From an uncultured Thermoleophilia bacterium (GTDB lineage: Bacteria > Actinomycetota > Thermoleophilia > UBA2241): a DNA stretch of 64,000 bases. Shown here piece by piece: positions 46,083 to 60,378 of this stretch. The first letter of the stretch is position 1. Every line of letters starts with the position of its first letter. The DNA lies in assembly GCA_963699725.1 (NCBI GenBank), contig CAVOVA010000027.1:170066-234065 (forward strand). The letters run 5' to 3'. Position numbers and translations under genes: made by a program. The notes beneath the pieces are model-generated. The model was not told the DNA's origin. It worked only from the letters and a program-made list of their open reading frames with translations, and did not search any database.

Positions 46083-47378
46083 TCAGACCTTGACCGGCCC
46101 GAAGATGTCGGCCATGCGGTTCTTGCGGTCGACCACCTTCTGCATGCGTGCGTCCCACACCTCGCTGAGCGTCGGGCCGTGGCTCTCGTCGAACATCCCG
46201 GCCACGCCGAGGCGCTCGCGATCGGGCTCGCAGTCCTCGCAATGACACTGGCCCTCGACGTAGTCGTCGGGCTCCGTGTACTTGCTGATCACGCCCTCGT
46301 AGTTGCGCAGGATGATCTTGCCCGGCGCCTGGCTGATGACGTAGTTGGGGAACACCGGCGTCTTCCCGCCGCCGCCGATGGCGTCGATGATGTAGGTGGG
46401 CACGCCGAAGCCGGTGGTGTGACCACGCAGGCTCTCGTAGATCTCGATGCCCTTGGCGACGCTGGTGCGGAAGTGCGCCGTGCCCTGGGCGAGGTCGCAC
46501 TGGTAGTAGTAGTAGGGCTTGACGCGATACTCGAGCAGCCGGTGGGAGAGCTTCTTCATCACCGCGGCGCAGTCGTTGATGCCGCGCAGCAGCACCGTCT
46601 GGTTGCCCATGGGGATGCCGGCGTCGTTCAGGCGATCGCAGGCGAGCTTGCTCTCGGGGGTGAACTCCTGCGGGTGGTTGAAGTGGGTGTTGAAGTACAG
46701 CGGCTGGTACTTGCTCAGCATCGCCACGAGCTCGGGGGTGATGCGCTGCGGGCAGACGACCGGCATGCGCGAGCCGATGCGGATGATCTCCACGTGGTCG
46801 ATCGCGTGCACGCGCTCGAGGATGCTCTCGAGCTGCCCGTCGGAGAGCACCAGCGGGTCGCCGCCGCTGATCAGTACGTCGCGGACCTCGGTGGCGCGCT
46901 CGAGGTACTCGATGGCGTGGTCGATCTCGGCCCGGGCGACGATGTCCTCGGTGCCGCCGACCAGGCGGCGGCGCGTGCAGTGGCGGCAGTACATGCTGCA
47001 CATCTCGGTGACCACGAAGAGCACCCGGTCCGGGTAGCGGTGGGTGATGCGCGGCGTCGGCGAGTCGAAGTCCTCGGAGACGGCGTCCTCGAGGTCTTCG
47101 GCGTGGAACACGAGCTCGGGCGGCGTCGGCACGCCCTGCATGCGCACCGGGTCAGTGGGGTCGTCCGGGTCCATGAGCGACGCGTAGTAGGGCGTGACGG
47201 ACACGCGGAACTTGCCCATGCAGGCGTCGAGGTCACGGCGCTGCGGCTCGGTGAGGTTGAGCACGCCGGCGAAGTCGTCGGTGGTGGTGAGGCGGTTGCG
47301 GAGCTGCCAGCGGTAGTCGTCCCAGTCGGCGTCGCTGACGTCTCTGAAGCGCGGTATGTCCTTGCGGTCTCTGATCAT
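46083..47378 (-). CDS. kamA: Lysine 2,3-aminomutase (radical SAM, PLP)
   Basis: HRYPDRVL, CSMYCRHCTRRR, SGGDPL, HFNHP.E, YYYQCD, GGGGK, C-terminal CHCEDC. Confidence 0.9.
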   Translation of the reverse strand: MIRDRKDIPRFRDVSDADWDDYRWQLRNRLTTTDDFAGVLNLTEPQRRDLDACMGKFRVSVTPYYASLMDPDDPTDPVRMQGVPTPPELVFHAEDLEDAVSEDFDSPTPRITHRYPDRVLFVVTEMCSMYCRHCTRRRLVGGTEDIVARAEIDHAIEYLERATEVRDVLISGGDPLVLSDGQLESILERVHAIDHVEIIRIGSRMPVVCPQRITPELVAMLSKYQPLYFNTHFNHPQEFTPESKLACDRLNDAGIPMGNQTVLLRGINDCAAVMKKLSHRLLEYRVKPYYYYQCDLAQGTAHFRTSVAKGIEIYESLRGHTTGFGVPTYIIDAIGGGGKTPVFPNYVISQAPGKIILRNYEGVISKYTEPDDYVEGQCHCEDCEPDRERLGVAGMFDESHGPTLSEVWDARMQKVVDRKNRMADIFGPVKV

Positions 47379-47501: not shown

Positions 47502-48905
47502 TTACAGCCCCGACTCGGCGACGATACGCTGGAGCGTGCCGCGGACCTCGTCGCCGAGCGGCACGGCGGTGTGTTCGGCGACGAGCCGGCCCGCGAGGAT
47601 GGTCGCCTTCGCGTAGGCGCCCTCCCGGCCGGAGGCGATCCACGCGTCCCACATGCTGCGGTCGAGCAGACGCGGACGCCACACGTCTTTCATGTGCCGG
47701 CGCGTGTGGCGCTGGCCAAGGTAGTTGCCGCCGATGCCTACCTGATTGATCGCGTCGAGGGCGATGGTCTCGTCCTCGACCTCGATGCCGGAGGCGATCC
47801 TCGCGTTCCAGCTGAAGATCTCGGAGTCCATGACCAGCTGCTGTGGGCTGAACGCGTCGCCGGCGCCGAGGGTACCGGCTCCGCTGGTCACGTCGGCGCC
47901 CGCGGCGGTCGTGCTGAGCGTGGCGAAGGCGCCTTGGGTGCAGGCCTGCCAATCGGGCTCGTGGCTCACGGTACGCTGACCGCCGGCGACGACCGGCAGG
48001 CCCACCAGGGCCGCGAGCTGAGCGGCGGCGAGCAGGAATAGCGCGGCCGACGGGCCCGCGGCCGGCAAGCCGGCGGCGGCGGGGTCGGCGGCGTAGAAGA
48101 ACGGCGCGCCGGGGGCCGCGGCCTGTACGGCCGCGCACCCGGCGAGCACGCCGGCGTGGTGACGGATCAGGGCGGCGCCGAGGCCGGCGGCAATCGGTGC
48201 GCCCGCATCGTCCCCTGGCGATTTGACCAGTCCGACTGGCAGGCCGGCGCAGGCGAAGGCGAGCGCCGCATCCAGCGCGTCGGCGCCGCCGCAGAGCGAG
48301 AGCGGCGGGCGGCTGCGGGCGGCTGCGGCCGAGCCGGCGACGGCCGCGGTCATCGCGACGGCCGCGTCGGCTTCGGCGGCCGACGTCAGGCCCGAGGCCA
48401 TCACATGCTTGCTGGTGCCGGTCAGGCAGCGCGCGAGCTCGCCGAGCGGAGTCTCGCCGGCAGCGTGCACCGGCGGACCCGCGACGACGGCCACCTCGGG
48501 CAGCGCGTCGGCGAGGCGTACGGCAGCGTCGAGGTCTGCTGCGGTCGCCGGGACGGGGTCGTCGCCGGCGAGCGGGCGTACCCGCGAGGGCACGCCGGCG
48601 GGGCCGGCGGTCGCGATCCCGGCGGCCAGCCAGATCCGACCGGCACCGACGCGCACATCGTGCTCCGGCGCGCGCCCGGCGAGCACGAAGCTTGGGGGCG
48701 CCGACTGAGCCGCGGCCTCGGCCGCGGCGGCCTCGGCGCCGAGCAGCTCGAGCGCGGCCGCGTGCACGCGCGCCACGTCGTCATCGCTCAGCACGCGCAG
48801 GGCGAGGCGCGCTCGGGTCGTCAGGATGGAGCGCGCCCGCGGCAGCGCCTGCGGCGCGCCGCCGGCGGCGCCCGCCGCACTCGCGACGTTCGACGGCTCG
48901 GTCAC
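47502..48905 (-). CDS. Divergent, Ala-rich MttB-superfamily protein #5
   Basis: RVH.AALE, LADALP, EPDWQA, QLVMD.E, YLGQRHTR; internal deletions. Confidence 0.72.
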   Translation of the reverse strand: MTEPSNVASAAGAAGGAPQALPRARSILTTRARLALRVLSDDDVARVHAAALELLGAEAAAAEAAAQSAPPSFVLAGRAPEHDVRVGAGRIWLAAGIATAGPAGVPSRVRPLAGDDPVPATAADLDAAVRLADALPEVAVVAGPPVHAAGETPLGELARCLTGTSKHVMASGLTSAAEADAAVAMTAAVAGSAAAARSRPPLSLCGGADALDAALAFACAGLPVGLVKSPGDDAGAPIAAGLGAALIRHHAGVLAGCAAVQAAAPGAPFFYAADPAAAGLPAAGPSAALFLLAAAQLAALVGLPVVAGGQRTVSHEPDWQACTQGAFATLSTTAAGADVTSGAGTLGAGDAFSPQQLVMDSEIFSWNARIASGIEVEDETIALDAINQVGIGGNYLGQRHTRRHMKDVWRPRLLDRSMWDAWIASGREGAYAKATILAGRLVAEHTAVPLGDEVRGTLQRIVAESGL

Positions 48906-50338
48906 CTTCTGCTCCCCTCTGCCTCGGCAAGCACAGCCTGCAGCCGGTCGCGGATCGAGTCTTCAAGTGCGAACGCGCGCGGCTCGTCGCGCAGCTCCTG
49001 CGTGCGCGCGGCCACGCGCTCCCTGAGCGTGGTCGCCCCGGCGGCGGCCCAGCGGTCGTGCGTCGCGCGGTCGAAGAGGCGCGGCGCCCACGTCTCGCGG
49101 TGGTGCTGACGCGTGTAGCCCCGGCCAAGGTGACTGCCGCCTGGACCGACGGCGTCGATCTCATTGAGCGCCAGCGCCTCGTCGTCGACGCCCACCTCGA
49201 CCAGCAGCGCGCGGGCATAGCTCACCAGCTCGTCACCGAGGACCACCGTCTGGTAGCTGCTCTGCATGCCGCTCTCGAGGTAGCCGACGTCGTGGAGCAG
49301 CGTGGCGCGGCTGAGCGCGCCGAGCACCGCCGTGATGCCGGCCTCGGCGGCCCACTGCTCGTCGAACGTCTTGGCGTCGGCGACGGCGGCGTAGGCGAAG
49401 CTCGGCAGCCCGTAGAAGCGGGCCAGGTCCGTTGCCGCGGCGTTGCCGAGGAAGTGCTCGGGCGCGCCGTACACGTCGACGGCGGTGCGCATGTCGAACG
49501 CACCGCAGCCGACACCGTACACAAAGGGCGCCCCTGGCCGTGTCAGCTGGTGGACGACCAGGCCGCTCAGCGTCTCGGCGTTGCCGATCACGATGGTCGC
49601 GGTCATCGAGGCCGGCGCCGTGGTGCCGGCGGCCGGCGCCGGCGCGTAGATCAGCGGGACATCGAGCTCGGCGCAGGCGCAGACCTTGTCGAGCGCCTCG
49701 TCGCTGTGGATCAACGGCGGGTTGGGCATCGCGTAGCAGCCGAAGCTGCGCGCCTCGCCGCACATGGCGGCCATGTCCTTCATGCGGCGCAGGGACACGG
49801 CGTCGTGCGCCGTCGTCAGCAGCGGCTTGCGCGTGCCGGCCAGCATGGCGGCGAACTGGGCCAGGTCGCCGATCTCCGCCGCCACGTCGCTCGGCAGTCC
49901 CATGCTCATGACGAAGTCGAGGTTGGGGAGCTTCTCCGCGAGTGCGGCCATTCCCTCGACGTCGGCGGTCGTGCTCCGCCGGCGCTCGCCGCTGTCGGGG
50001 TCGGTGACGTAGACGCAATCCGACCCCGTGCCGAAGTAGCTGTTACCGTCCTCGAGTTCGAGACCGCCGAGCTCACCGCGGCGCGCGTGGCCCTCGCCGC
50101 CGGACGCGCCGCGCTCCCTGAGCTTGAAGTGGCGCGGCGCGCTCTGCAGGGCGGCGTCGACCAGTGTGGCCGGGATGCGGGCGCGCGTCCCTTCGACGCA
50201 CGCGCCAGCCTGCGCCAGTTGCTCGCGGGCGCGGGCGTGACGGACCTCCACGCCGGTCTCCTCGAGCAGCGCGAGTGTCGCCTCGTGGACGCGCCAGCAG
50301 GCGGCGTCGTCCCACACGGTGAGGCGGGCGGCGGGCAT
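48902..50338 (-). CDS. MttB-superfamily methyltransferase (non-Pyl) #6
   Basis: YFGTGSDC, LDFVMSMGLP, GTTAPAS, LLHDVGYLE. Confidence 0.9.
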   Translation of the reverse strand: MPAARLTVWDDAACWRVHEATLALLEETGVEVRHARAREQLAQAGACVEGTRARIPATLVDAALQSAPRHFKLRERGASGGEGHARRGELGGLELEDGNSYFGTGSDCVYVTDPDSGERRRSTTADVEGMAALAEKLPNLDFVMSMGLPSDVAAEIGDLAQFAAMLAGTRKPLLTTAHDAVSLRRMKDMAAMCGEARSFGCYAMPNPPLIHSDEALDKVCACAELDVPLIYAPAPAAGTTAPASMTATIVIGNAETLSGLVVHQLTRPGAPFVYGVGCGAFDMRTAVDVYGAPEHFLGNAAATDLARFYGLPSFAYAAVADAKTFDEQWAAEAGITAVLGALSRATLLHDVGYLESGMQSSYQTVVLGDELVSYARALLVEVGVDDEALALNEIDAVGPGGSHLGRGYTRQHHRETWAPRLFDRATHDRWAAAGATTLRERVAARTQELRDEPRAFALEDSIRDRLQAVLAEAEGSRR

Positions 50339-50400
50339 CAGCGAATCCTGGCGGTCACGGGCGTCCTCGAGGCGGTCATCTGCGCTTCTGGCCGGGGCCG

Positions 50401-51867
50401 TCAGGCCCCCGCCAGCTCCTTGTCGGCGCGCGCGACGATCGCGCGCAGCTCGTTTGCGACGTCCTCCGAGAGCGGCTCGGGCTGATAGCTCGCCAGGATG
50501 TCGTCGGCGATCTCCGTGGCCTTCTCCAAGGCGCCCTTCTTGCCCTCCCGCAGCCAGTTGTCGTACGGCGTGCGGTCCCACACGGTCGGGCGCCAGATCT
50601 CCTTCATGTGCTGCCGGGTGTGCTTCTGGGCGAGGTAGGTGCCGTTCGGCCCGACCTTCTTGATCAGGTCGAGCGCCAGCGTCTCGTCATCGACCACGAT
50701 GCCGCCGGCAACCTTCTGGATGATGCCGTAGATCTCGATCTCCATCACCATGTGCGGGTAGCTGAGGATCTTGGAGCCGTTGAGCAGGCCGGCGCCGTTC
50801 ATCATATCGGCGCTGGTCATCACACTGGCGAAGGTGCTGAGCGAGTCGTCGATCGCGGCCTGCCAGTCGGGCTCCTTGGCCCCGGTGGCCATGGTGCCCA
50901 TCGCCATCGGCACGCCGTAGAAGTGAGCGAGCTGGGTGGACGCGCCTGCAAGGAGGTAGTCCTCGGGCGAGCCGCCGGTGTACCCGCCGGTCTTGAGGTC
51001 GATCACGCTCGGAGCGCCGGCGAAGAAGGCCGGCACGCCCGGGTAGGCCAGCTCGAGGAGGACGACGCCGCTGAGCGCCTCGGCGTTCTGGACGACGAGA
51101 TTGCCGGCCAGCGTCGCCGGGCCGGTCCCGGCCGCGAGCGGCATAGGCATGAAGCCGCTGGCCAGCCCATGCTCGGCGGCTACGAGGTTGGCCTCGAGGT
51201 TGGGACCGTCGTGCGCCAGCGGGTCCACTGCACACTGCATGAAGCTGAGTATCGGACGCTCGCGCAACGCATCCGTTCCGCCGGCGATCGTGGCCGCCAT
51301 CTCGACCAGGTAGCGGGCGGGCTTCTCGCCGACCGTGGTCACCGTCTGGAAGTGCTTGCTGGTGTTGGTGAACACGGCCTCGGCGTCGTGCAGCGCCTTG
51401 GTCGCGGGAGGAACGTCCTGACTGGTGACCACAGGGCCCCAGTAATAGCTGATGCTGGGCAGCGCGTCGACGAAGCGAGCGCTGGTCGCCGCGTCGGCCT
51501 TGGTACTCGGCCGCTTCTCGCCCTTCTTGTGGTCCCAGACGAAGACGCCGGAGCCGTCGTTGCTGAGGTAGCTGTGCTTGCCGTCGACGAGCATGTCGCA
51601 GGCGGGGTCGCGGCCGGCGAGCACGTAGCTGTCCGGCACCTGCGAGACGGCCTCCATGACGACCGCGCGAGGGAGCTTGGCGACCTGCGTCGCGCGGTCG
51701 ATCTCACACCCGTTCTGCTCGAGGACGTCGAGGGCGCGTTCGCTCGGGAACCGGATGCCGACCGTCTCGAGGACGTCGAGCGTGGCCTCGTGAATGCGCT
51801 CGAGCTCGCTTGGGTTGAGCACGTCCCACCTGAGACGGGGGGCGATGGGATTGATTCGGGTGGTCAT
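50401..51867 (-). CDS. MttB-superfamily methyltransferase (non-Pyl) #7
   Basis: NTSKH, GTGPATLAG, DL.TG, EPDWQA, VGP.G.YL. Confidence 0.9.
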   Translation of the reverse strand: MTTRINPIAPRLRWDVLNPSELERIHEATLDVLETVGIRFPSERALDVLEQNGCEIDRATQVAKLPRAVVMEAVSQVPDSYVLAGRDPACDMLVDGKHSYLSNDGSGVFVWDHKKGEKRPSTKADAATSARFVDALPSISYYWGPVVTSQDVPPATKALHDAEAVFTNTSKHFQTVTTVGEKPARYLVEMAATIAGGTDALRERPILSFMQCAVDPLAHDGPNLEANLVAAEHGLASGFMPMPLAAGTGPATLAGNLVVQNAEALSGVVLLELAYPGVPAFFAGAPSVIDLKTGGYTGGSPEDYLLAGASTQLAHFYGVPMAMGTMATGAKEPDWQAAIDDSLSTFASVMTSADMMNGAGLLNGSKILSYPHMVMEIEIYGIIQKVAGGIVVDDETLALDLIKKVGPNGTYLAQKHTRQHMKEIWRPTVWDRTPYDNWLREGKKGALEKATEIADDILASYQPEPLSEDVANELRAIVARADKELAGA

Positions 51868-52038
51868 TGCGGCAGCCTCGAAGGGGTCCGACGACGGCGG
51901 GTCAGGTTGGAGCCGGCAGCGGGCGGGCAGTCGCGGTGTTGCTCAGGAGGAGCCCGTCCGCGGAAGCGGAGGGCCTAGAGACCGCAGGCGCGGTTGATCG
52001 TGCTGATGCTGATGCTGGGAACGGCGGGCACGGGTCGG

Positions 52039-52051
52039 AGTCTACCACCGG
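52039..52051 (-). promoter_or_regulatory. Putative extended -10 promoter upstream of mttB #7
   Basis: CCGGTGGTAGACT on minus strand, with TTGTCG 16 bp upstream of TAGACT. Confidence 0.45.
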
Positions 52052-52150
52052 CCTCGCGCGCGACAAAACGCAGCGGGTTGCCGCGCGGTGCAGCGGTTTT
52101 TCAGTCGACGGAGCGGGCGGCGCAGCGCCCACCCGCCCCGTCGGCGAAGG

Positions 52151-52732
52151 TCAGCTCGGGTCGAGGCCGAGCCGCTCGGCCATCGAGCGCCCGAGCGCCC
52201 GGGCCTGGGCCATGAGCTCCGCGTCATCCGCCGCCGACCCGGGCTTGTCGGCACACCCGCCGAGGGCCACCACGGGCAGCTCTTCGGGGTTCGACAGCGC
52301 CACGAAGCGGCGCATGGCCGCCAAGGTGTCGTCCGCGCTGGACTCCGCGGCGACGGCGATCAGGCCCACGACTTTCGGGGCCAGCCACTCCTCGTGGTAG
52401 TAGCGGGTGGCGTTGCGGTCCATGAACGTCTTCATCTGCCCCGAGACGTTCTCGTAGTAGATCGGCGTCGCAAGGATGAGGCCGTCGGCCGCGTACACTT
52501 GCTCGAGGACGCCGGGCATGTCGTCGTCGTGGGGGCAGGACTGCCGCTCGCCGCAGTTCTCGTGGCCGTCGCAGGCGTTGATGCGCACCTCGGAGAGCAC
52601 GATCCGCGTGCAGTCGCAGCCGCTGAGCTGGAGCTCCTCGAGGGCGGCGTCGACCAAGGTCGCGGTATTGCCGCCTCGCCTGGGGCTGCCGATCACGGCG
52701 ACGACCTTCAGACGGGCTTCAGGAGCGCTCAT
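52151..52732 (-). CDS. Iron-sulfur flavoprotein / flavodoxin family
   Basis: GSPRRGGNT, C..H..C.....C...DDM, TP.Y...VSGQMK.F.DR; RBS GGAGG. Confidence 0.85.
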   Translation of the reverse strand: MSAPEARLKVVAVIGSPRRGGNTATLVDAALEELQLSGCDCTRIVLSEVRINACDGHENCGERQSCPHDDDMPGVLEQVYAADGLILATPIYYENVSGQMKTFMDRNATRYYHEEWLAPKVVGLIAVAAESSADDTLAAMRRFVALSNPEELPVVALGGCADKPGSAADDAELMAQARALGRSMAERLGLDPS

Positions 52733-52782
52733 GTCAATGCCTCCGGATGTAGGTGACGTGGCTTGGACGACGTGGCTCCGGC

Positions 52783-54195
52783 CTAGTCTGTCAGACCGGC
52801 GTGATCGCGAAAGCGCTGGACGCAGTTTATCGGCAGGTCGAGCAGCTCCGCGATCCTGAACTTGGCCTCCATGGCGCTGGACTGGGTGGGGTAGCTGATC
52901 TCGAAGGTCGTGATGCGCCCCAGCTGCCGCTCCCTGCGCACGTCTTCCATTGCGATGGGGTCGGAGAGATCGAAGGGACTGACTCCGAGACGCTCTGCAA
53001 CGTACGCCTTGGCATCGCCGATCCGCATCCCCCGAGTGATCTGCATGCGCGCCACCAGATCTCCAGCAGCGCGCATCCCGCACATCCCCGAGGCGGTCGC
53101 GTGGGCACACGGCATCCCGAGAGGGTCGCCGCCGCCGACCTACAAGCCGTCCAGCCGCAGGATGTCGACGGTGGCTCGCGAGGCGCGCGCGACCGCATCC
53201 AGCGGCAGGTAGCTGGTGATGGGGACGGCGCCGACGCCCATGCCGATGTTCATGTGCACGGGGATCTCGGCCACTTCCATGCACGGCTTGACCACCGTCA
53301 GCGCGCGCGCGATGTTCCACGCCCCCGAGCGGCGCGTGTTCACGGTGACGGCCGGCCCGTAGATGGTCGCTCCTGCCCGGCGAACGAGCTCCATCTGCCC
53401 ACGGGGCCAGAGGCCGGCCAGGCGTACGCCGTCGTACTCGAGCCGGCCGTGCATCCCGAGGACGAACTCGCCGGCCATGCCGACCTGGATGCCCATGTCG
53501 GGGTGGGCCGCCCGGATCCGCTCGATGGCGAGAAGGGTGGCCAGGAAATCGCCGTCTCCGGCGGCGCCGGCGGTGTCGAAATCGATGCCGTCGGCGCCGG
53601 CCTCCCACAAGGCGTCGGCGGTCTTCACCATGTCCTCGACAGCGTGCCCTACCGCCTCTTCCTGGGCCGCCCGCGCCTCGTCCACGCGCGCCAGCGGGAG
53701 CAGCTCCGACCAGTTGGGCGCCGGACCGTCGGGCCTCGAGTACAGCCCCAGGTTGGGCATCGCCCCGTACATCACCGGCACCGTCAGGACCGCCTGCGCG
53801 TCTTTCATGCTCTGGGCTTCGAACGGCAGGATCGTCCGGATGGCCTTGAACGAGTAGTCGACGTGCCCGAGCTCCACAGAGTCGGCGCCGAACATCTGCT
53901 CGTAGATGAGCAGGTCCTGGGTGCGCGTCCCGACCGTCTTGGAGCCGGAGCCGTCGTACGTGAGCACGACCTCGTCGCCGATGTCGACGGCGGAGAACTT
54001 GGCCGGCGACGCCCAGATCTCCAGGAGGTGATCGAGCTCGTCCTCGGCCAGCGGCGGCACCTTGGCTCGGCCCGCGGCCGCCAGGGTGCCCTCCTCGAGC
54101 TCGGCGCGGAGCTCGCTCCGGGTCATCCGCGTGAGCGAACCATCGCCCATGCGGGTGGGGTAGTGCGTCTCCATCTTGCGGCTCTCCCTCGTCAC
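52783..54195 (-). CDS. mtbB: Dimethylamine:corrinoid methyltransferase with in-frame amber (pyrrolysine) at 53140-53142
   Basis: TRMGDG N-terminus, GAMPNLGLY..PDGP, FDT.GAAGDGD; ...LRLDGL[TAG]VGGGDPLGMP..H..ASGM.G.RAAGDLVARMQ continues in frame to 52783. Confidence 0.9.
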
Positions 54196-55631
54196 TGGGT
54201 AGTAGCGCCCGCGGCGCGCGCGTAGCGCTCGAACGTGCCGCGCGCCTCGCGGCGGGCATCGTCGGGAATCGGTGTGGGCACGTGCGCGGCGAGCACGGCT
54301 TCGGCGCGCTCCAGCGCGTCGCTCACGAGAGACCGCCCAGCGAACTCGGACAGGCTCCCGCGCTGGAAGACCGACGGACGCCAGATCTCGCCGCGGCGTG
54401 AGCCCTCGCGGGAGCTCCGCCGACCGAGGAAGTGGCCTCCGGGGCCTACCGCGGCGATGTCGTCGAGCAGCGTCGACGCGTCGTCCACCGCCGGCAACCG
54501 GAGGAGCCGGCGCAGGGACCCGATGGTGTCACAGTCGAGCATGACCTTGGCGGTCGAGATGGCCTGGACCGAGTCCACGAGCCCGACGGCCACGAGCATG
54601 TCGGCCCCGGCGAGGACGGTCGCCATTCCGGTGATGGCGCCCTCGGCGCCGGCCTGGAAGTTGGCCGCCTTGGCATCCGAACTGATCCCCGAGCCCATGC
54701 TGGGGAGCCCGAGGTGCTTGCTCATGGAGAGGCACACCATGTCGAGCAGCGCGACCTCCGGGGCCCCGCACAGGTAGCCGCCGGTGCGCAGGTCGGTCGC
54801 GCCACCGGTGGCTGCGACCGTCAACGCGCAGCCGGGCACCGCGGTCTGGAAGATGACGATCCCGGCGAGGAACTCCGCGATCCCGGTCACGGCCGAGCCC
54901 AGGATGCTCATCGGACTGGTCGATCCCATCAGCGGCAGCGGATGGACGTTGATCGACACCCCATGACGCGCCAGCTCGATCGCGGCGTCGAGCTTGTCGC
55001 TCTCGAACTGCAGCGGCGACACGGGGCAGTGCAGGGAGGAGTAGATGGGTCGCTCGGAGAGCGGCGCGCCCGCGATGGCCTCGAGCATCTCCAGCAGTGG
55101 CGGCACCTGCTCCGGCGAGTGCGCGACGATGCTCTGGACGTGCTTCGAGGTCGACTCCAGGGCGATCAGGTCGGTCTCGAGGCCGCCCGTGAGATCGTCG
55201 AAGCGGGGGTTCGTGAGCGTTGTCCAGACGAAGTCGATCTCGGACAGGGCGTCGAAGAGGCCGAAGTAGTACTCGAGATCGGCTTGGGTGGCCCCGCGCA
55301 CCTCGCCGGTCGCGTCGTCCATGACCATCGTCGCCATGCCGTCGGTGGTGCAGGCGAGCGGCGAGCCGTCGCCGACGACGAGGTCGCGCGCCGGGTCGCG
55401 CCCGGCCATGCGGATCTGGCGCGGCGTCTGTGCGAGGCAGCTCTCCACAAGCGCCGGCGGAAGCTTGGCGACCCGGCGCTCCCGGTGGACCTCCGCCCCC
55501 GCCGCGGCGAGCAGGCGAAGGACGCTCTCCGAGCCGACACCCACGCCAATGTGCTCGAGGACGTGCAGCACGCGCTGGTACAGCGCGTCCTTCTCGGCCG
55601 CCGAGAGGCAGTCGACCCGCGGCGCGGTCAC
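54192..55631 (-). CDS. MttB-superfamily methyltransferase (non-Pyl) #8
   Basis: TSKH, CPVSPL, GSTSP, GAPE, SSDAK...QAG.E; GTGA overlaps at both ends. Confidence 0.88.
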   Translation of the reverse strand: MTAPRVDCLSAAEKDALYQRVLHVLEHIGVGVGSESVLRLLAAAGAEVHRERRVAKLPPALVESCLAQTPRQIRMAGRDPARDLVVGDGSPLACTTDGMATMVMDDATGEVRGATQADLEYYFGLFDALSEIDFVWTTLTNPRFDDLTGGLETDLIALESTSKHVQSIVAHSPEQVPPLLEMLEAIAGAPLSERPIYSSLHCPVSPLQFESDKLDAAIELARHGVSINVHPLPLMGSTSPMSILGSAVTGIAEFLAGIVIFQTAVPGCALTVAATGGATDLRTGGYLCGAPEVALLDMVCLSMSKHLGLPSMGSGISSDAKAANFQAGAEGAITGMATVLAGADMLVAVGLVDSVQAISTAKVMLDCDTIGSLRRLLRLPAVDDASTLLDDIAAVGPGGHFLGRRSSREGSRRGEIWRPSVFQRGSLSEFAGRSLVSDALERAEAVLAAHVPTPIPDDARREARGTFERYARAAGATTQ

Positions 55632-57100
55632 TCCCGCGCCGCCGCGTCGCGGTCCGCCGCGTCGACGATGGCGCGGATCTCGCGCACCACGTCGTCCGGC
55701 AGCGGCTCCGGCATGTGCGTGGCGAGAATGCGGCGCGCCTCCTCCAGCGAGCGCTGATGCAGATCCTTGCCGCCCGCGGCGGCCCAGTCCTCTCGCACCC
55801 TGCGGTCGATCAGCTTGGGCTGGGACTGACAGCGCATGAACTTGAGCGTGGAGTCCAGGCTGAGGAAGTCCCCGAAGGGGCCCACCTGAGCGATGTCGTC
55901 CACGCCGAGCAACTCGTCGTCCATCGGGACGCCCCCGACCGCGTGCTTGATCATCCGAGCGAACTCGTTGTCCATGACGAGCTGGCCGAAATCGAACGCG
56001 ACACCCGACTCGATCATCCCCGCGCCGTAGATCAGGTTGGCACCTGCCAACGCCGGCAGCAGCGCGGTCAGCGTCTTCTCGTGACCGGTCTGAGCGTCGA
56101 AGAGCTTGGAGTCGCCCTACAACCCGGCGACGTAGCTCGGCAGGCGATACCGCCGCGCGATGGCGGCGACGGCGGCGCTGATCACGCCGCACTCCGGCGA
56201 GCCGACAGAGGCGGCGGCGAGGCGCAGGTCCATGGCCGTCGTCGAGCTGCCGTAGAGCACCGGAGCGCCGGGACTGGCGAGCTGCGCGAGCGTGATCCCG
56301 GCCAGCACCTCGGCGTTGTGGACGACGAGGGTGCCGGCGAGGTTGACGGGGGCCGACCCGCCCGACATCGCCATCGAGAGGACCAGACAGGGTACGCCGG
56401 CCCGGGCGGCCGAGACGATGGCCTCGGAACACTCCTTCGGCAGCCGCAGCGGGCTGACGGGGCAGACGCCGATCATCACGATCGGGCGCCGCCGCAAGGC
56501 CTCCCGGCCGCCCACCGCGGCGGCGGCGATGTCGAGGATCACCTCCGTCTCCCACCTGGAGAGTGGACCGGCGCAGATGTGCTTGGAGGTGTTGAGCACC
56601 GCCGCCTCGTAGCTGTGGATCGTCGCCGTCGCGGTGGGCATGTCGTGGGCTCCGACGGCGATCTCGTAGGCGTCCAGCTCATCCAGGTAGTCGGCCAGTC
56701 GCGCGGTGTCGGCGACGTCCTGCTTGGTCGGCTCGCGCATCTCGCCGGTCTCGAGGTCGGCGATCTTCAGGCCCTCGCCGAACGTGGTGAAGCCGACGCG
56801 ACCGGCGTCGAGCATGATGTCGTCCCTGGGGCTGCGGCCGGCGGCGAAGACGCGCTCCGGTGACGAATCGATGGCCGCCTCGACCAGCCGGGGCGGGATC
56901 CTCACTACGCCGGTCGCACGATCGACGATCGCGCCCCCGGCCTCGAAGATGTCCGTCGCCTCACGGTCGTCGGAGAACACGCCGGTCTGCTCGAGGACCT
57001 CCAACGTGGCGAGGTGCAGGTCCCTGAACTCGTCCTCGGTGAAGGCATTCAGGCTGAAGCCTCCACTGCGCGTTCGCCCTGAATGGGCACGTCGTTTCAA
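55628..57100 (-). CDS. mttB: Trimethylamine:corrinoid methyltransferase with in-frame amber (pyrrolysine) at 56117-56119
   Basis: ...LPSYVAGL[TAG]GDSKLFDAQTGHEKTLTALLPALAGANLIYGAGM... continuous frame; TTG start after GGAGGAGG. Confidence 0.92.
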
Positions 57101-57117
57101 CGACCCTCCTCCCCGGT

Positions 57118-57163
57118 GATTTCGCTATCTGTACGTATAGCAAGCGAATCTGGTCCGCGTCAA
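57118..57163 (-). promoter_or_regulatory. Putative mttB promoter with overlapping inverted repeat (operator candidate)
   Basis: TTGACG-18 bp-TATACG on minus strand; gctat-N8-atagc palindrome at 57124-57141. Confidence 0.45.
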
Positions 57164-57187
57164 GCACCCCGTGGTACTCTCGGCAGG

Positions 57188-57865
57188 ATGGCCCGATCGA
57201 GACCGACAACCAGGCCGGCGACGAGCGCCGGACCGCGTCCCAACAAGCGTCAGCTGAGCGCTGCCGCGTCGAAGGAGAAGCTGATCGAGGCCACGATCCT
57301 CTGCATGGCCAACTACGGCCCCGCCGGCGTATCGATAGAGAAGATCACCGACGCCGCCGGGGTCTCCCGGGGTCTCGTCCGGCACCACTTCGGCAGCAAG
57401 CGGCGGCTCCTCCTCGAGGCGTTCCAGCGGCTGGCCGACGAGCAGCGGACGGCGTTCGGCGGCGACCTGGCCACGGACGGCGATCCGACGGCGGCGCTGC
57501 GCGCCGCCGTCGCCACGTCGTTCCGCGATGAGCTGGCGGCGCCCGAGCGCTCCCATGCGTGGTTCGGGTTCTGGCAGGCGGCTCTCGGGGACCCGGACCT
57601 GAGAGAGATCAACGAGCGCGTCTACGCGGAGGAGCGCGAGCGGTACAGCGAGCTGTTCAGCGAGGCGGCGCGGCAACAAGGCCTGGACATCGATTCCCGC
57701 GAGGCCGGGACCGGGCTCGTCGCCCTGGCCGACGGGGCCTGGAGCGAGCTGCTGATGGCGGCGGCGGACTTCAGCGTCGACGACGCGCTCGCGCTCTGCG
57801 ACCACTACATCGACATGATCCTGGAGCGGGGCCGCGCGGACCGGGGGCGACCCGCGGGCACCTAG
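57188..57865 (+). CDS. TetR family regulator, BetI-like
   Basis: LI.AT..., I...AGVS.GLV.HHFGSK HTH; W..FW..A and DG.W typical of BetI-type C-domain; divergent from Pyl-mttB. Confidence 0.85.
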   Translation: MARSRPTTRPATSAGPRPNKRQLSAAASKEKLIEATILCMANYGPAGVSIEKITDAAGVSRGLVRHHFGSKRRLLLEAFQRLADEQRTAFGGDLATDGDPTAALRAAVATSFRDELAAPERSHAWFGFWQAALGDPDLREINERVYAEERERYSELFSEAARQQGLDIDSREAGTGLVALADGAWSELLMAAADFSVDDALALCDHYIDMILERGRADRGRPAGT

Positions 57866-57891
57866 GTCGTCCCGGCGCGGGCGCCTGCCGG

Positions 57892-59304
57892 TCAGACTCC
57901 CGGCCGCCCGACCTCCACCTCCGCGAGGATCCGATCGAGGCCGGCCTTCACGTCGTCGGGCAGCTCGAAGGCGCGCGGCGGGGAGCGCAGCTCGGAGACC
58001 CGCGCCCGCAGGCGGTCGAGCAGCGTCTGCGATCCATCGGTCTCCCATGCGTCGTGACGGGTCGTGTCGAAGAGGTCGCTCTGCCAGATCTGGCGGAAGT
58101 GCCCGCGCGTGTAGGTCCGGGCCAGGTGACTTCCGCCCGGCCCCACCGCCTTGATCTCGGCCAGCGCCAGCGCCTCATCGTCCACGGCCAGCGGCGCCAT
58201 GAACGCCTTCGCCCAGCCGAGCAGGTGGTCGCCGAGGACGATCGACTCGTAGCTGCTCTGGAGGCCGCACTCGAGGTAGCCGACGTCGTGCAGCAGCGTC
58301 CCTCGCGAGAGCTTGCCGAGTATCGCCGTGAGCGCGGTCTCGGCGCTCCACTGTTCGTCCAGCACCTTGCTGTCCGTATGCGCCGCGTAGGCGAAGCTGG
58401 GAAGGTCATACCAGCGCGCGAGGTCGGTCTGGGCCTGATGGCCGCGGAAGACGTCGGCGGACGAGTACACCTCGTTCATCGTACGCATGTTCATGGCGCC
58501 GACGCCGACGCCCCAGACGAAGGGCGCGCCGGGCCTCGCGGCCTGGCTGAGCACGAGCCCGGCGAGCACCTCGGCGTTGGCAATCACGATCACCGAAGCG
58601 ATGCTCGCCGGCGCCGTGGTGCCGGCGTTCGGCGCCGGCGCCCAGATGAGCGGGACGCCGAGCCCGGCGCAGGCGACGACCTTGCTGGCGCCGTCCTCGT
58701 CGAAGAGCAACGGCGGCACCGGCATCGCGTAGATGGCGAAGCTGTCGGCCTCGCCGGCCAGCGCCGCCATCTCCTGCATCCTGCCGAGGACGTGGCCGTC
58801 ACGCGGGGCGACGAGGAGGGGCTTGCGCGTGCCGCGCAGCATGGCGTCGACCTGGACGAGGTCGTCGATCGCCTGTGGGGCGTCCTCGGGCAGGCCCATG
58901 CTCATCACGAAGTCGATGTTGGGCAGTACCTCGCAGAGCGCGGCCATGCCCTCGACGTCGGCGCGGCGCACGCGGCGGCGCTCGCCGCTCTCGGGATCGC
59001 GCACGTAGAGGCAGTCCGAGCCGGTGCCGCAGTAGCTGTGGGCGGCGTCGAGCACGAGCGGCTCGGAGTCGCCGCCGCGCGGCTTGATGGTCCAGTCGCG
59101 CGGCGCGGTCTCGAGGGCGGCCTCGACCAGCCCGGCGGGGATGCGCACGCGCGTCCCGTCCACCTGAGCGCCGGCCTTGGCGAAGAGCTCGGCGGCGGGC
59201 GCGTACCTGACCTCGATGCCGGTCTCGGCGAGCACCTCCAAGGTCGCCTCGTGGACGCGCCGGCAGGCGTCCTCGTCCCAGATCGTCAGGCGAGCTGCGT
59301 TCAT
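57892..59304 (-). CDS. MttB-superfamily methyltransferase (non-Pyl) #10
   Basis: Close paralog of #6: ARLT.WD..AC.RVHEATL, GTGSDC, LLHDVGYLE; RBS AAGGAGG. Confidence 0.9.
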   Translation of the reverse strand: MNAARLTIWDEDACRRVHEATLEVLAETGIEVRYAPAAELFAKAGAQVDGTRVRIPAGLVEAALETAPRDWTIKPRGGDSEPLVLDAAHSYCGTGSDCLYVRDPESGERRRVRRADVEGMAALCEVLPNIDFVMSMGLPEDAPQAIDDLVQVDAMLRGTRKPLLVAPRDGHVLGRMQEMAALAGEADSFAIYAMPVPPLLFDEDGASKVVACAGLGVPLIWAPAPNAGTTAPASIASVIVIANAEVLAGLVLSQAARPGAPFVWGVGVGAMNMRTMNEVYSSADVFRGHQAQTDLARWYDLPSFAYAAHTDSKVLDEQWSAETALTAILGKLSRGTLLHDVGYLECGLQSSYESIVLGDHLLGWAKAFMAPLAVDDEALALAEIKAVGPGGSHLARTYTRGHFRQIWQSDLFDTTRHDAWETDGSQTLLDRLRARVSELRSPPRAFELPDDVKAGLDRILAEVEVGRPGV

Positions 59305-59430
59305 GTCGCCCCCCTCCTTCGCTGTCGTGATGGCGGGCCTGCCGTGGCAGACCGAGTGGCGCTCGGCGATGGCGCCGCGCTCTCGTCGCACGGCCGGACG
59401 GGCCGCAGCCGTCGGCTCGAGCGGGCCGTG

Positions 59431-59443
59431 ACTCTACCACCGG
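59431..59443 (-). promoter_or_regulatory. Putative extended -10 promoter upstream of mttB #10
   Basis: CCGGTGGTAGAGT, 12/13 identical to the element at 52039-52051. Confidence 0.4.
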
Positions 59444-59606
59444 ATGCACGGTCACGCCGCCGGCGGCGGCGGCGGGCATCGCCGGCGCACGGCGATGTCC
59501 CGCAACGGTCGGCCACGCTGGAACGAGACGAGGGTGCGACAGCCGCCAGCCTGGCCTGGCACGAACGGCTCCTGCGGACGTCGTGGTCCTCGCGCAACGA
59601 GGAGCA

Positions 59607-60245
59607 TCAGGCCTGTGGCTTCTCCCTGAGGTAGGTGAGCACCATGTCCTCCCAGAGGCGGTAGGCGCCCTTGTGGTCGAACTGCTCCCGGTCGGCGGCG
59701 TACTGCACGGCCAGGCCCTCGACGATGGCGACGCTGAGCGCCGCGAGCTTGTCGAGGTCTGTAGCCCCGCCGGCGCGGCCGCGGATGCCGCCGACAGCGC
59801 GACCGGCCGCGAGCGTCTGGCGGTCGAGCTCCCGCGACTTCGCGTAGTTCGCGGCGAGGTCCTCGCGCAAGCGATCGTCGCGCATGATGTGCGGCAGGAG
59901 CTCGTAGAAGGCGCAGAACCCGCGCCAATCCGCCGAGATCTGCCGCTGTTCGTCGATCAGCGTCCGCACGCGCTCCTCGGGCTTCTCGATGCCCTCGAGA
60001 TGCTCGCGGAGCGCCCTGTCCTCGTTGTCCATCAGCGAATCGATGATCGCGTCGACGAGGCCCTGCTTGCTTCCGAAGTAGTACGCGACGAGAGCCCGGT
60101 ATTCTCCCGACTCCTCTTCGATCGCCTGGAGAGTGAGTTTCGAGTAGCCCCTCTCCGAAAGGATCTTCTTCGCGGCGTCGAGGATGCGGAGTGCCGTCGG
60201 CGACGTGGCGATGTCCCTGCCCTGCTGTCGCACCCGCACTGCCAC
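59607..60245 (-). CDS. TetR family regulator
   Basis: RILDAA...LV.YYFGSK..L; GTG after GGAGG; divergent from aguA. Confidence 0.85.
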   Translation of the reverse strand: MAVRVRQQGRDIATSPTALRILDAAKKILSERGYSKLTLQAIEEESGEYRALVAYYFGSKQGLVDAIIDSLMDNEDRALREHLEGIEKPEERVRTLIDEQRQISADWRGFCAFYELLPHIMRDDRLREDLAANYAKSRELDRQTLAAGRAVGGIRGRAGGATDLDKLAALSVAIVEGLAVQYAADREQFDHKGAYRLWEDMVLTYLREKPQA

Positions 60246-60287
60246 GTGCATCCTCCGATCGGACCCGATAGTGCTTGCGTGCGTGAC

Positions 60288-60307
60288 TTGATTGACCGTA
60301 CAATAAA
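60288..60307. promoter_or_regulatory. AT-rich palindromic TetR operator candidate
   Basis: ttgATTGaccgtaCAATaaa (ATTG-N6-CAAT) between divergent tetR and aguA. Confidence 0.55.
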
Positions 60308-60378
60308 CTCGTCTAGGACCGAATGCAAGGGCCCGCGGCCAGGTTCTCGGCCGCGCGGCCCCACGCGAAGGAGCCGTC

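What the first reader, a model, noticed from the sequence alone, without database searches (positions are those of the whole stretch)
55628..57100. Pyrrolysine-encoding trimethylamine methyltransferase in a probable actinobacterium
Seen: ORFs 56117-57100 and 55628-56050 are one 490-aa frame with TAG at codon 328: PSYVAGL*GDSKLFDAQTGHEKT. Established: this is the Pyl site of MttB (near residue 334 in Methanosarcina), and Pyl is known mainly from methanogens and scattered anaerobic bacteria. Inference: genetic-code expansion in a high-GC lineage where it may be unreported; I cannot confirm novelty without taxonomy.
Basis: partly seen in the sequence, partly recalled or inferred. Interest (0 to 1): 0.9.

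Follow-up and report, generated by a model that had tools for sequence, protein, structure and literature searches.

The report
Pyrrolysine trimethylamine methyltransferase in a Thermoleophilia genome
This is a genuine trimethylamine methyltransferase gene whose in-frame TAG encodes pyrrolysine, in an uncultured actinobacterium with the full pyrrolysine machinery; pyrrolysine use in Actinobacteria has been briefly reported, so it extends known biology.

Summary
Window 57100..55628 (minus strand) is one 490-codon frame with a single TAG at codon 328. It scores as Pyl-type MttB (TIGR02369, 686 bits against a cut-off of 525). The TAG aligns with the non-standard residue 334 of solved MttB 7xcl.

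The TAG is kept in 79 of 80 related loci and in two other DNA assemblies. The genome carries pylB-pylC-pylD-pylT, pylSn and pylSc, each protein above its curated cut-off, on a contig that also holds a TAG-mttB. In total 19 methylamine methyltransferase genes each carry one TAG: 8 mttB, 10 mtbB and 1 mtmB. None of the 38 sub-cut-off MttB paralogues does.

Relatives are titled Thermoleophilia. PylSc occurs in 73 of 79 sampled genomes of the same family. TAG is still about 22% of stops and RF1 is present, so this is local recoding.

It is not unreported: one paper counts "two Actinobacteria" with PylRS, another describes Actinobacteriota MAGs expressing Pyl-mttB and Pyl-mtbB.

A synonymously constrained hairpin lies 66-86 nt 3' of the mttB UAG.

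The parts
55628..57100 (-). mttB, Pyl-type trimethylamine:corrinoid methyltransferase. 490 codons, TTG start at 57100-57098, TGA stop at 55630-55628.
   Evidence: Pfam PF06253 scores 294 bits. NCBIfam TIGR02369 scores 686.2 bits against a cut-off of 525. PDB chains 7xcm/7xcl match at E 4e-124.
56117..56119 (-). In-frame TAG, codon 328, read as pyrrolysine.
   Evidence: Aligns with X334 of 7xcl_A. Conserved in 79 of 80 loci. Unchanged in DNA contigs of runs X1 and X2.
57105..57109 (-). Shine-Dalgarno GGAGG, 4 nt before the TTG start.
   Evidence: read directly from the sequence.
56020..56119 (-). Match to Rfam PYLIS_3 (RF02510), the 100 nt starting at the UAG. The match is driven by sequence, not structure.
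   Evidence: 78.2 bits against a gathering score of 38. The model has only 8 pairs, and 4 positions are marked non-standard in the window.
56034..56054 (-). Conserved hairpin at nt +66 to +86 from the U of the UAG. A 6-bp stem GUUGGC/GCCAAC with loop AGGN, plus two outer pairs, inside the codons Ala-Leu-Ala-Gly-Ala-Asn.
   Evidence: Three of the four lowest synonymous-entropy codons among 215 columns lie here. 97% of cells are paired in 58 distinct sequences, 0 of 500 shuffles reach that, and slid controls give 14-50%.
54192..55631 (-). Non-Pyl MttB-family paralogue. Its GTG start overlaps the mttB TGA stop (GTGA), so it lies in the same operon.
   Evidence: TIGR02369 scores 288.8 bits, below the 525 cut-off, with no stop inside. 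The overlap is read.
52783..54174 (-). mtbB, Pyl-type dimethylamine methyltransferase. In-frame TAG at 53142-53140. The gene's own terminator is also a TAG (52785-52783), followed by 17 codons up to a TGA.
   Evidence: TIGR02368 scores 458.3 bits against a cut-off of 369.1. Sequence read.
53043..53142 (-). Match to Rfam PYLIS_2 (RF02509), beginning at the mtbB UAG. It includes a hairpin at about +65 to +100.
   Evidence: 78.1 bits against a gathering score of 36. RNAalifold on 35 sequences shows third-position covariation at pairs 69-96, 72-93, 75-90 and 78-87.
52151..52732 (-). Small gene I read by eye as a flavodoxin-like reductase. No family was assigned. Its ATG overlaps the TGA that would end a read-through of mtbB.
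   Evidence: NCBIfam found no family. The functional name is my own reading of the sequence, not a tool result.
57083..57865 (+). Divergently transcribed BetI/TetR-like regulator.
   Evidence: TIGR03384 scores 99.5 bits, below its cut-off of 201.
57892..59391 (-). Non-Pyl MttB-family paralogue upstream of mttB.
   Evidence: TIGR02369 scores 291.8 bits, below 525, with no stop inside.
50401..51867 (-). Non-Pyl MttB-family paralogue.
   Evidence: 457.7 bits, below 525.
48902..50581 (-). Non-Pyl MttB-family paralogue. The true start is probably internal to this ORF.
   Evidence: 309.8 bits, below 525.
47502..48905 (-). Non-Pyl MttB-family paralogue.
   Evidence: 221.4 bits, below 525.
46083..47378 (-). 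Lysine 2,3-aminomutase (AblA/KamA family).
   Evidence: TIGR03820 scores 559.5 bits against a cut-off of 525.4.
44236..46023 (-). Corrinoid reductive activase, RamA/AcsV-like.
   Evidence: NF040756 scores 399.5 bits and TIGR04270 scores 131.8 bits, both below their cut-offs.

Best explanation
The gene is a working mttB. The ribosome reads UAG codon 328 as pyrrolysine, using a dedicated tRNA-Pyl (anticodon CUA) charged by a split PylSn+PylSc synthetase. The pyrrolysine itself is made from lysine by PylB, PylC and PylD. All of these are encoded on another contig of the same genome. The full-length enzyme would use the pyrrolysine side chain to present trimethylamine to a Co(I) corrinoid protein and methylate it. 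A methyltransferase 2 would then pass the methyl group on, probably to tetrahydrofolate, and so into an acetyl-CoA-synthase (Wood-Ljungdahl type) route. UAG is not reassigned genome-wide: it remains a common stop codon and RF1 is present, so Pyl-tRNA must compete with termination at each UAG.

Shown here: the gene's identity, the position of the codon, the conservation of the TAG, and the presence of the whole pyl set.

Inferred: that Pyl is actually inserted, that trimethylamine is the substrate, which corrinoid protein and methyltransferase 2 are the partners, and where the methyl group ends up.
For: (1) Family: TIGR02369 equivalog scores 686.2 bits against a cut-off of 525. Pfam MTTB covers residues 17-480.

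(2) Site: one continuous alignment to solved MttB chains 7xcl/7xcm (E about 1e-123). Query residue 328 lies opposite chain residue 334, which is X in 7xcl and K in 7xcm.

(3) Conservation: TAG at the same site in 79 of 80 loci and in 22 of 22 matches in five same-genus genomes.

(4) Clean partition inside the genome. All 8 MttB matches above the cut-off have exactly one TAG, and none of the 38 below it has any stop. All 10 MtbB matches have one TAG. One MtmB-family match (659 bits) has one TAG, and the other 4 (225-323 bits) have none.

(5) Machinery, as bits against cut-off: PylB 442/348, PylC 339/248, PylD 204/150, PylSn 127.5/51, PylSc 321/178. tRNA-Pyl (CUA) lies directly after pylD.

(6) The tRNA fold shows the tRNA-Pyl hallmarks listed in PMC1851642 (passage read): one base between the acceptor and D stems, a 5-nt D loop, a long anticodon stem and a short variable loop. 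Twelve distinct pylT sequences from 23 genomes show compensatory changes in 7 of 23 pairs and an invariant anticodon loop.

(7) Physical linkage: contig C1 carries both the pyl cluster and a TAG-mttB. In 4 of 5 same-genus genomes, PylSc and a TAG-mttB lie on the same contig.

(8) Natural control: two 98%-complete same-genus genomes without PylSc or pylT (G007, G019) have only 2 MttB-family matches each, none with a TAG.

(9) Accessory genes: a RamA-like activase in the window. Genome-wide there are 14 corrinoid proteins, 3 URO-D-type and 3 pterin-binding proteins, and one acetyl-CoA synthase CdhC domain.

(10) Published metatranscriptomes report Actinobacteriota MAGs expressing Pyl-mttB and Pyl-mtbB (PMC10805028).
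Against: There is no protein-level evidence for this genome.

No corrinoid protein gene lies in the window: 0 of the 14 genome matches fall inside it, so the partner is unassigned.

The genome is a bin (87% complete, 4.7% contamination), and the pyl cluster sits on a different contig from the window.

Three relatives (G115 at 93% complete, G291 at 83%, G311 at 76%) have TAG-mttB genes but no PylSc match. In G115 no pylT match was found either. Either these assemblies have gaps, or TAG-mttB can persist without the machinery.

Rfam's general tRNA model does not reach its gathering score on pylT; the tRNA call rests on ARAGORN, the fold and covariation.

TAG ends about 22% of heuristically called genes (500 of 2263). 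It also ends 2 of the 19 Pyl genes themselves, including the neighbouring mtbB. How sense and stop UAGs are told apart is not explained.

The RNA-library contigs that cover the gene are 90-95% alike, so they come from relatives, and the tool warns that DNA may be present in such libraries.
Confidence: 0.9

Rival explanations
1. Pseudogene or assembly error: the TAG is a recent nonsense mutation or a miscalled base, and the gene is dead.
For: Under the standard code the frame is interrupted. One related locus, L059, really is broken, with six other stops.
Against: TAG lies at the same codon in 79 of 80 loci that are 53-96% identical and in 22 of 22 matches in relatives. Two other DNA assemblies keep it. 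GC3 remains high on both sides of it. All 19 Pyl-type genes in the genome carry exactly one TAG, while none of the 38 non-Pyl paralogues has a stop.
Confidence: 0.01
2. The TAG terminates translation and the gene yields two polypeptides (327 aa, plus 140 aa from the TTG at 56050) that work as a split enzyme without pyrrolysine.
For: the ORF listing finds a TTG start for the second piece. RF1 is present and TAG is a common stop, so some termination at this UAG is likely.
Against: The alignment to solved MttB runs without a gap across the site, and the 22 codons between the TAG and the TTG at 56050 are conserved coding sequence. A complete pyl gene set is kept under selection in 73 of 79 sampled genomes of the family. 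Relatives that lack it also lack TAG-mttB.
Confidence: 0.04
3. The bin is a mixture: the pyl cluster on contig C1 belongs to a different organism from the window's contig C27, so this organism cannot decode the TAG.
For: The genome is a 28-contig bin with 4.7% estimated contamination. The pyl genes and the window are on different contigs.
Against: C1 itself carries a TAG-mttB, and its GC content (0.690) matches C27 (0.694). In same-genus genomes with long contigs, PylSc and TAG-mttB share a contig in 4 of 5 cases. The window is collinear at 89-92% nucleotide identity with L010, whose genome also has PylSc.
Confidence: 0.02
4. UAG is reassigned to pyrrolysine genome-wide, as recently reported for some archaea, rather than recoded at specific sites.
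For: The genome has an unusually large number of Pyl genes, 19. The archaeal precedent is cited in PMC13695967 (passage read).
Against: A heuristic gene caller finds TAG ending 500 of 2263 ORFs, or 22%. RF1 scores above its cut-off, 487 bits against 423. Back-up stops close behind TAG are not enriched: 11% lie within 10 codons, against 16% after TGA. A scan of 316 TAG read-through candidates found no further family bridged across the TAG.
Confidence: 0.03

Closest known systems
Solved pyrrolysine-containing trimethylamine methyltransferase MttB (PDB 7xcl, 7xcm, 7xcn)
   Same: Full-length alignment, query residues 3-484 against chain residues 4-490, E about 1e-123. The query's TAG lies opposite the chain's non-standard residue 334, and the flanking motif PSYVAG-x-(Pyl)-xDxK is shared.
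   Different: The two are roughly half identical by eye across the alignment. The host here is a 70% GC bacterium. The PDB listing gives no source organism, so I name none.
Bacterial Pyl systems with a split PylSn + PylSc synthetase (Desulfitobacterium hafniense, Acetohalobium arabaticum, Bilophila, the Olavius delta-1 symbiont)
   Same: PylSn and PylSc are separate genes, there is a pylBCD operon and a pylT, and UAG is retained as a frequent stop codon. PMC9630628 says all bacterial PylRS are of this split type. The nearest non-actinobacterial MttB sequences are Desulfobacterota, including Olavius delta-1, at 53-60% identity.
   Different: The phylum is Actinomycetota. The genome has 19 Pyl genes, against the 8 reported for delta-1, which PMC1976440 called the largest number in a bacterium in 2007. 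I did not survey later counts. The gene order here is pylBCD-pylT, then pylSn, then a corrinoid protein, then pylSc on the opposite strand, spread over about 8 kb.
Actinobacteriota MAGs from Stordalen Mire reported to express Pyl-mttB and Pyl-mtbB (PMC10805028)
   Same: The phylum and gene types are the same. MAGs with isolate names bog_752 and palsa_645 appear among my related loci (L042, L047, L048) at about 62% identity, with the TAG conserved.
   Different: That paper recognised the Pyl genes by their truncation at the amber codon. In the passages I searched it does not mention pylS or pylB (0 occurrences). Those loci are paralogue-level relatives of the window gene, not its orthologues.
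Non-Pyl MttB superfamily (glycine betaine methyltransferase MtgB; PDB 2qne, 9yce)
   Same: Same Pfam family and fold class, matching at 229 bits. Thirty-eight such paralogues are in this genome and five flank the gene.
   Different: They have no UAG and score below the TIGR02369 cut-off. The gene in this finding scores above it and has the UAG.

Membership tests
Pyl-type MttB (NCBIfam TIGR02369, Pfam PF06253) | Whole-protein score above the curated equivalog cut-off. | tested here: met
   686.2 bits against 525. PF06253 scores 294.2 bits against 25.
Pyl-type MttB (NCBIfam TIGR02369, Pfam PF06253) | In-frame UAG at the position of the active-site pyrrolysine. | tested here: met
   Codon 328 aligns with X334 of 7xcl_A. 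The TAG is conserved in 79 of 80 loci.
Pyl-type MttB (NCBIfam TIGR02369, Pfam PF06253) | A cognate corrinoid protein (MttC) encoded beside the gene. | tested here: not met
   None of the 14 corrinoid-protein matches in the genome falls inside the window. One lies in the pyl cluster, scoring 217 bits against a cut-off of 215. This is a common arrangement, not a strict defining feature.
Pyl-type MttB (NCBIfam TIGR02369, Pfam PF06253) | Accessory proteins present in the genome: corrinoid protein, reductive activase and methyltransferase 2. | tested here: met
   A RamA/AcsV-like activase lies in the window. The genome has 14 corrinoid proteins, 3 URO-D-type proteins and 3 pterin-binding proteins.
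Pyl-type MttB (NCBIfam TIGR02369, Pfam PF06253) | Trimethylamine-dependent methylation of the corrinoid protein. | not testable with these tools
   This needs an enzyme assay.
Pyrrolysine insertion system (pylT, pylS, pylBCD) | A tRNA with a CUA anticodon and tRNA-Pyl architecture. | tested here: met
   ARAGORN calls tRNA-Pyl at G000:C1:151964-152036. The fold is and the published hallmarks in PMC1851642. Covariation is seen across 12 distinct sequences. Rfam's general tRNA model misses it.
Pyrrolysine insertion system (pylT, pylS, pylBCD) | Pyrrolysyl-tRNA synthetase (PylSc, with PylSn in bacteria). | tested here: met
   PylSc scores 321.2 bits against 178.15 and PylSn 127.5 against 51.15.
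Pyrrolysine insertion system (pylT, pylS, pylBCD) | The biosynthesis genes pylB, pylC and pylD. | tested here: met
   442.4 bits against 348.2, 338.6 against 248.3, and 203.7 against 150.05.
Pyrrolysine insertion system (pylT, pylS, pylBCD) | A pyrrolysine residue detected in the protein. | not testable with these tools
   This needs mass spectrometry.
PYLIS cis-element (Rfam RF02510 for mttB) | Score above the gathering threshold. | tested here: met
   78.2 bits against 38, beginning exactly at the UAG.
PYLIS cis-element (Rfam RF02510 for mttB) | A conserved secondary structure that promotes Pyl insertion. | tested here: inconclusive
   The Rfam model has 8 pairs, and 4 positions are non-standard in the window. 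The single-sequence fold gives z = -1.79. The whole-region alifold is weak at -11.5 kcal/mol. A different, local hairpin at +66 to +86 is well conserved, but its function was not tested.
Genome-wide UAG-to-Pyl genetic code | UAG no longer used as a stop codon, and RF1 lost. | tested here: not met
   TAG ends 500 of 2263 called ORFs. RF1 scores 487 bits against 423.

The most novel reading that the evidence does not exclude
One family of Thermoleophilia is a large, essentially undescribed bacterial lineage that decodes pyrrolysine. It has inherited the pyl cassette vertically and has expanded Pyl-dependent methylamine methyltransferases further than any bacterium I found described: 19 Pyl genes and 61 methylamine-type methyltransferase genes in 3.2 Mb. 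Its mttB genes, and those of Desulfobacterota, carry a previously unrecognised hairpin 66-86 nt 3' of the UAG. It sits at the same distance as the known mtbB PYLIS hairpin and may help Pyl-tRNA win against RF1.
Probability: 0.25. Interest if true: 0.7.

Novelty: new member of a known kind. Interest (0 to 1): 0.5.

Why it matters
Pyrrolysine is the rarest natural expansion of the genetic code, and the known bacterial users are few. This analysis shows a whole family of soil, sediment and wetland actinobacteria carrying it, not a single stray transfer. PylSc is present in 73 of 79 sampled genomes of the family. It is absent from every other family in the class sample except one (9 of 61), and from all sampled genomes outside the class.

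Standard annotation splits all 19 such genes, so pipelines undercount the capacity of these bacteria to consume methylamines. That matters for methane budgets, because they may compete with methylotrophic methanogens for trimethylamine and dimethylamine.

A genome with 70% GC, 22% TAG stops, RF1 and 19 Pyl codons is also a good natural test case for an open question: how bacteria tell a sense UAG from a stop UAG. The conserved hairpins give that question something concrete to mutate.

Tried and rejected

Donor lineage. A quick maximum-likelihood tree of 89 rows (78 loci, 8 own Pyl-mttB and 3 own non-Pyl outgroups; L059 and L080 were left out because of frame problems) places the window gene in a fully supported clade of 12 rows, 10 of them titled Actinomycetota. 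The Desulfobacterota rows form one clade of 36. The root is weak (support 14). The sample is the best 80 of 172 matches to this one query, and it contains no archaeal or Firmicutes sequences. I therefore make no claim about a donor.

Further Pyl proteins. I tested 316 TAG read-through candidates from a heuristic ORF caller for a paralogue that bridges the TAG. Nine were bridged: 6 mttB, 1 mtmB, and 2 others. The two others read as adjacent genes in the same frame: a PilC-like gene followed by a sigma factor, and an HdrA-like gene followed by an Fe-S membrane protein with its own ATG. The method cannot find families that have no paralogue; it missed all 10 mtbB and 2 of the 8 mttB.

Avoidance of TAG stops. 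I saw no depletion (22% of stops) and no enrichment of close back-up stops. The Pyl genes end in TGA 15 times, TAA 2 times and TAG 2 times. That does not differ clearly from the background, and the gene caller is crude.

Expression. RNA-library contigs from runs X17 and X18 cover parts of the gene at 90-95% likeness, and one (X18 record 22) bridges the TAG site. The table of differences was truncated, and the tool warns that such libraries can hold DNA. I do not count this as evidence of expression. Parts of the gene without contig cover mean nothing.

A PYLIS element across the whole 120 nt: the signal is weak.

The supplement of PMC9630628 may name the 'two Actinobacteria', and the supplement of PMC10805028 may list the Pyl-mttB MAGs. 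Either could show that this very genus has already been listed.
Full report
**The observation**

On the minus strand, window 57100..55628 is a single frame of 490 codons ending in TGA. It has one internal stop, a TAG at codon 328 (window 56119-56117), in the context PSYVAGL*GDSKLFDAQ. Third-position GC stays at 0.88-0.95 in the same phase on both sides of the TAG. A GGAGG sequence lies 4 nt before the TTG start.

**What the gene is**

- With the TAG read through, the product matches Pfam MTTB over residues 17-480 (294 bits).
- It passes NCBI's equivalog model for the pyrrolysine-type trimethylamine:corrinoid methyltransferase, TIGR02369, at 686.2 bits against a cut-off of 525.
- Against the Protein Data Bank it aligns end to end with the solved trimethylamine methyltransferase chains 7xcl and 7xcm (E about 1e-123).
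- Query residue 328 lies opposite chain residue 334. That residue is printed as X, a non-standard residue, in 7xcl and as K in 7xcm. The TAG is therefore at the pyrrolysine site.

**The TAG is real and conserved**

- Of 80 related loci fetched from one-genome-per-species contigs (53-96% identity), 79 have TAG at the homologous codon. The exception, L059, is a broken copy with six other stops.
- In five same-genus genomes, all 22 matches have exactly one TAG.
- Contigs from two other DNA runs, from two studies, bridge the site and differ only at 56151.

**The machinery**

The window is G000:C27:170066-234065, in a 28-contig bin of 3.24 Mb that is 87% complete with 4.7% contamination. The pyl genes are on contig C1:

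| Gene | Bits | Cut-off |
|---|---|---|
| pylB | 442 | 348 |
| pylC | 339 | 248 |
| pylD | 204 | 150 |
| pylSn | 127.5 | 51 |
| corrinoid protein of the Pyl-methyltransferase type | 217 | 215 |
| pylSc (opposite strand) | 321 | 178 |

A tRNA with anticodon CUA lies 38 nt after pylD.

- The tRNA folds into a cloverleaf with one base between the acceptor and D stems, a 5-nt D loop, a long anticodon stem and a short variable loop. These are the features listed for tRNA-Pyl in PMC1851642 (introduction passage read).
- BLAST finds the tRNA in 22 of 25 sampled genomes of the same family and in none of the other families.
- The 12 distinct sequences show compensatory changes in 7 of 23 pairs, and the anticodon loop never varies.
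- Against this, Rfam's general tRNA model does not reach its gathering score on it.

**Same organism?**

- Contig C1 carries the pyl cluster and also a TAG-mttB at 70283-71686.
- GC content is 0.690 for C1 and 0.694 for C27.
- In 4 of 5 same-genus genomes with long contigs, PylSc and a TAG-mttB sit on the same contig.
- The window is collinear with locus L010 over 49623-63816 at 89-92% nucleotide identity. L010's genome also has PylSc.

A binning artefact is very unlikely.

**Scale in this genome**

| Family | Matches | With exactly one TAG | With no stop |
|---|---|---|---|
| MttB, above the 525-bit cut-off | 8 | 8 | 0 |
| MttB, below the cut-off | 38 | 0 | 38 |
| MtbB | 10 | 10 | 0 |
| MtmB family, 659 bits | 1 | 1 | 0 |
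| MtmB family, 225-323 bits | 4 | 0 | 4 |

Source.

That makes 19 Pyl genes. The partition between Pyl-type genes with a TAG and non-Pyl genes without one has no exceptions.

The window alone holds 10 MttB-family genes. It also holds a second Pyl gene: mtbB at 54174..52783 (458 bits against 369), with its TAG at 53142-53140.

The mttB stop overlaps the GTG start of the next, non-Pyl paralogue (GTGA), so the genes form an operon. A RamA/AcsV-like activase, a lysine 2,3-aminomutase and a BetI-like regulator lie nearby. No corrinoid protein is in the window.

**Who it is**

Record titles of the nearest loci read 'uncultured Thermoleophilia bacterium'. Three of those genomes are the same ones that the genome search labels 'same genus', as shown by identical PylSc coordinates. 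Thermoleophilia is a class of the phylum Actinomycetota.

| Sample | Genomes with PylSc |
|---|---|
| Class sample, 401 genomes (E at most 1e-20) | 83, of which 81 are above the cut-off |
| Own family | 73 of 79 |
| One other family | 9 of 61 |
| Ten remaining families | 0 |
| Phylum sample, 401 genomes | 2, both in this class |

Source. All of these are samples, not censuses.

Two 98%-complete same-genus genomes of 1.7-1.8 Mb lack PylSc and pylT. Each has only two MttB-family genes, neither with a TAG. Three less complete relatives have TAG-mttB genes but no PylSc match. I cannot tell whether that reflects assembly gaps or real loss.

**How UAG is handled**

- A crude GC3-based ORF caller gives stops as TGA 1690, TAG 500 and TAA 73.
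- RF1 is present at 487 bits against a cut-off of 423.
- Close back-up stops are not enriched after TAG.
- Two of the 19 Pyl genes end in TAG. One is the window's mtbB; a read-through there would add 17 residues before a TGA that overlaps the next gene's ATG.

UAG therefore has two meanings here, as in other Pyl bacteria. It is not reassigned genome-wide as in the archaea mentioned in PMC13695967.

**RNA elements**

Rfam's PYLIS_3 and PYLIS_2 models match exactly from the two UAGs, at 78 bits each. The mttB model has only 8 pairs and the window breaks several of them. [quoted passage not shown]

A codon alignment of 86 Pyl-mttB sequences, 65 of them kept at under 90% nucleotide identity, has 215 columns with a conserved amino acid and degenerate codons. 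Mean synonymous entropy is 1.34 bits. Only four columns fall below 0.35:

- codon +24, Leu TTG, 61 of 65
- codon +25, Ala GCA, 64 of 64
- codon +27, Ala GCC, 63 of 63
- codon +36, Ile ATC, 52 of 52

The first three form a 6-bp hairpin, GUUGGC-AGGN-GCCAAC, at nt +66 to +86. In 58 distinct sequences, 97% of cells are paired. None of 500 shuffles reaches that, and slid controls give 14-50%. Two pairs covary, and both vary only at synonymous third positions.

In mtbB, the two most constrained of 163 columns are at +26 and +28. They lie in a hairpin at +65 to +100 with third-position covariation. The inner helix of that hairpin is the one in Rfam's PYLIS_2 consensus, so the mtbB element is already known.

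The mttB hairpin, at the same distance from the UAG, is not in Rfam's structure and not in the passages I read. At 66 nt it is too far downstream to touch a ribosome that is decoding the UAG. Its role is unknown, and other causes of synonymous constraint are not excluded.

**Novelty**

Pyl in Actinobacteria is already in print. PMC9630628 counts 'two Actinobacteria' among 81 bacterial genomes that encode PylRS, and PMC11764691 repeats this. PMC10805028 reports Actinobacteriota MAGs expressing Pyl-mttB and Pyl-mtbB. It recognised them by truncation at the amber codon, and pylS and pylB do not occur in its text.

Searches for pyrrolysine together with Thermoleophilia, Actinobacteriota, Actinomycetota or Bog-752 found nothing more specific. 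The Olavius delta-1 symbiont, with 8 Pyl proteins, was called the bacterial record in 2007. I did not survey later counts.

**Verdict**

The finding is a new, well-equipped member of a known kind. Two aspects may be new: the family-wide scale of the system and the mttB hairpin.

Noticed in passing
window 52783-54174 (-): A second Pyl gene, mtbB, lies two genes downstream of mttB, with its in-frame TAG at 53142-53140. Its own terminator is also a TAG (52785-52783), so one mRNA uses UAG both as sense and as stop. Read-through of the terminator would add 17 residues, up to a TGA that overlaps the next gene's ATG.
   Followed up: yes
window 56034-56054 (-); alignment A2 columns 66-86: A hairpin, GUUGGC-AGGN-GCCAAC, lies 66-86 nt 3' of the mttB UAG. 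Its synonymous sites are almost invariant across Actinomycetota and Desulfobacterota, and two pairs covary. It is not part of Rfam's PYLIS_3 structure. Its function is unknown.
   Followed up: yes
codon just before the Pyl UAG; G000 Pyl genes and loci L010-L089: The codon before the UAG is Leu TTG in 36 of 38 thinned mtbB rows that have Leu there, in 5 of 8 own mttB genes and in the one own mtbB-unrelated mtmB gene. TTG is a rare codon choice in a 70% GC genome. This may be a context effect on termination.
   Followed up: partly
G000, whole genome: The MttB family is greatly expanded: 46 genes in 3.24 Mb, 10 of them in this window. There are also 10 mtbB genes and 5 MtmB-family genes. Four of the MtmB-family genes lack the TAG, making them non-Pyl MtmB homologues.
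   Followed up: partly
G000:C4:13646-14803 and C4:29545-29642; C21:104561-104652: SelB scores above its cut-off (317 bits against 242), and ARAGORN calls two tRNA-Sec genes. The genome probably uses selenocysteine as well as pyrrolysine.
   Followed up: partly
G000:C21:24915-25379 and C21:31353-31976: An acetyl-CoA synthase (CdhC) domain and a nearby pterin-binding methyltransferase suggest a Wood-Ljungdahl-type route for the methyl groups.
   Followed up: partly
window 38881-38977 (-) and window 38001-44000: ARAGORN calls a 97-nt 'tRNA-Glu' that Rfam's tRNA model does not confirm. The same region has an unusually strong AT skew, +0.24 to +0.37. I cannot explain either.
   Followed up: no
genomes G115, G291, G311 (same family): These genomes have TAG-mttB genes (3, 2 and 1 above the cut-off) but no PylSc match. 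G115, which is 93% complete, also has no pylT match. Either the assemblies have gaps or the machinery was lost while the genes were retained.
   Followed up: partly
L016 (3.7-kb contig) and L059: L016 is titled Deltaproteobacteria, yet its mttB is 85% identical to the window gene and nests among Thermoleophilia. It also has a second TAG at codon 36. It is probably a mis-binned short contig. L059 is a 94%-identical copy interrupted over about 2.2 kb, with six stops.
   Followed up: no
window 46083-47378 (-): A lysine 2,3-aminomutase (AblA equivalog, 559 bits against 525) sits between the corrinoid activase and the MttB paralogues. Its link to methylamine metabolism is unclear.
   Followed up: no
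G000:C27:235379-236782 (+), 1.3 kb beyond the window's end: Another Pyl-type mttB (665 bits, one TAG) is followed by a partial corrinoid-protein match at 236839-237039.
   Followed up: no
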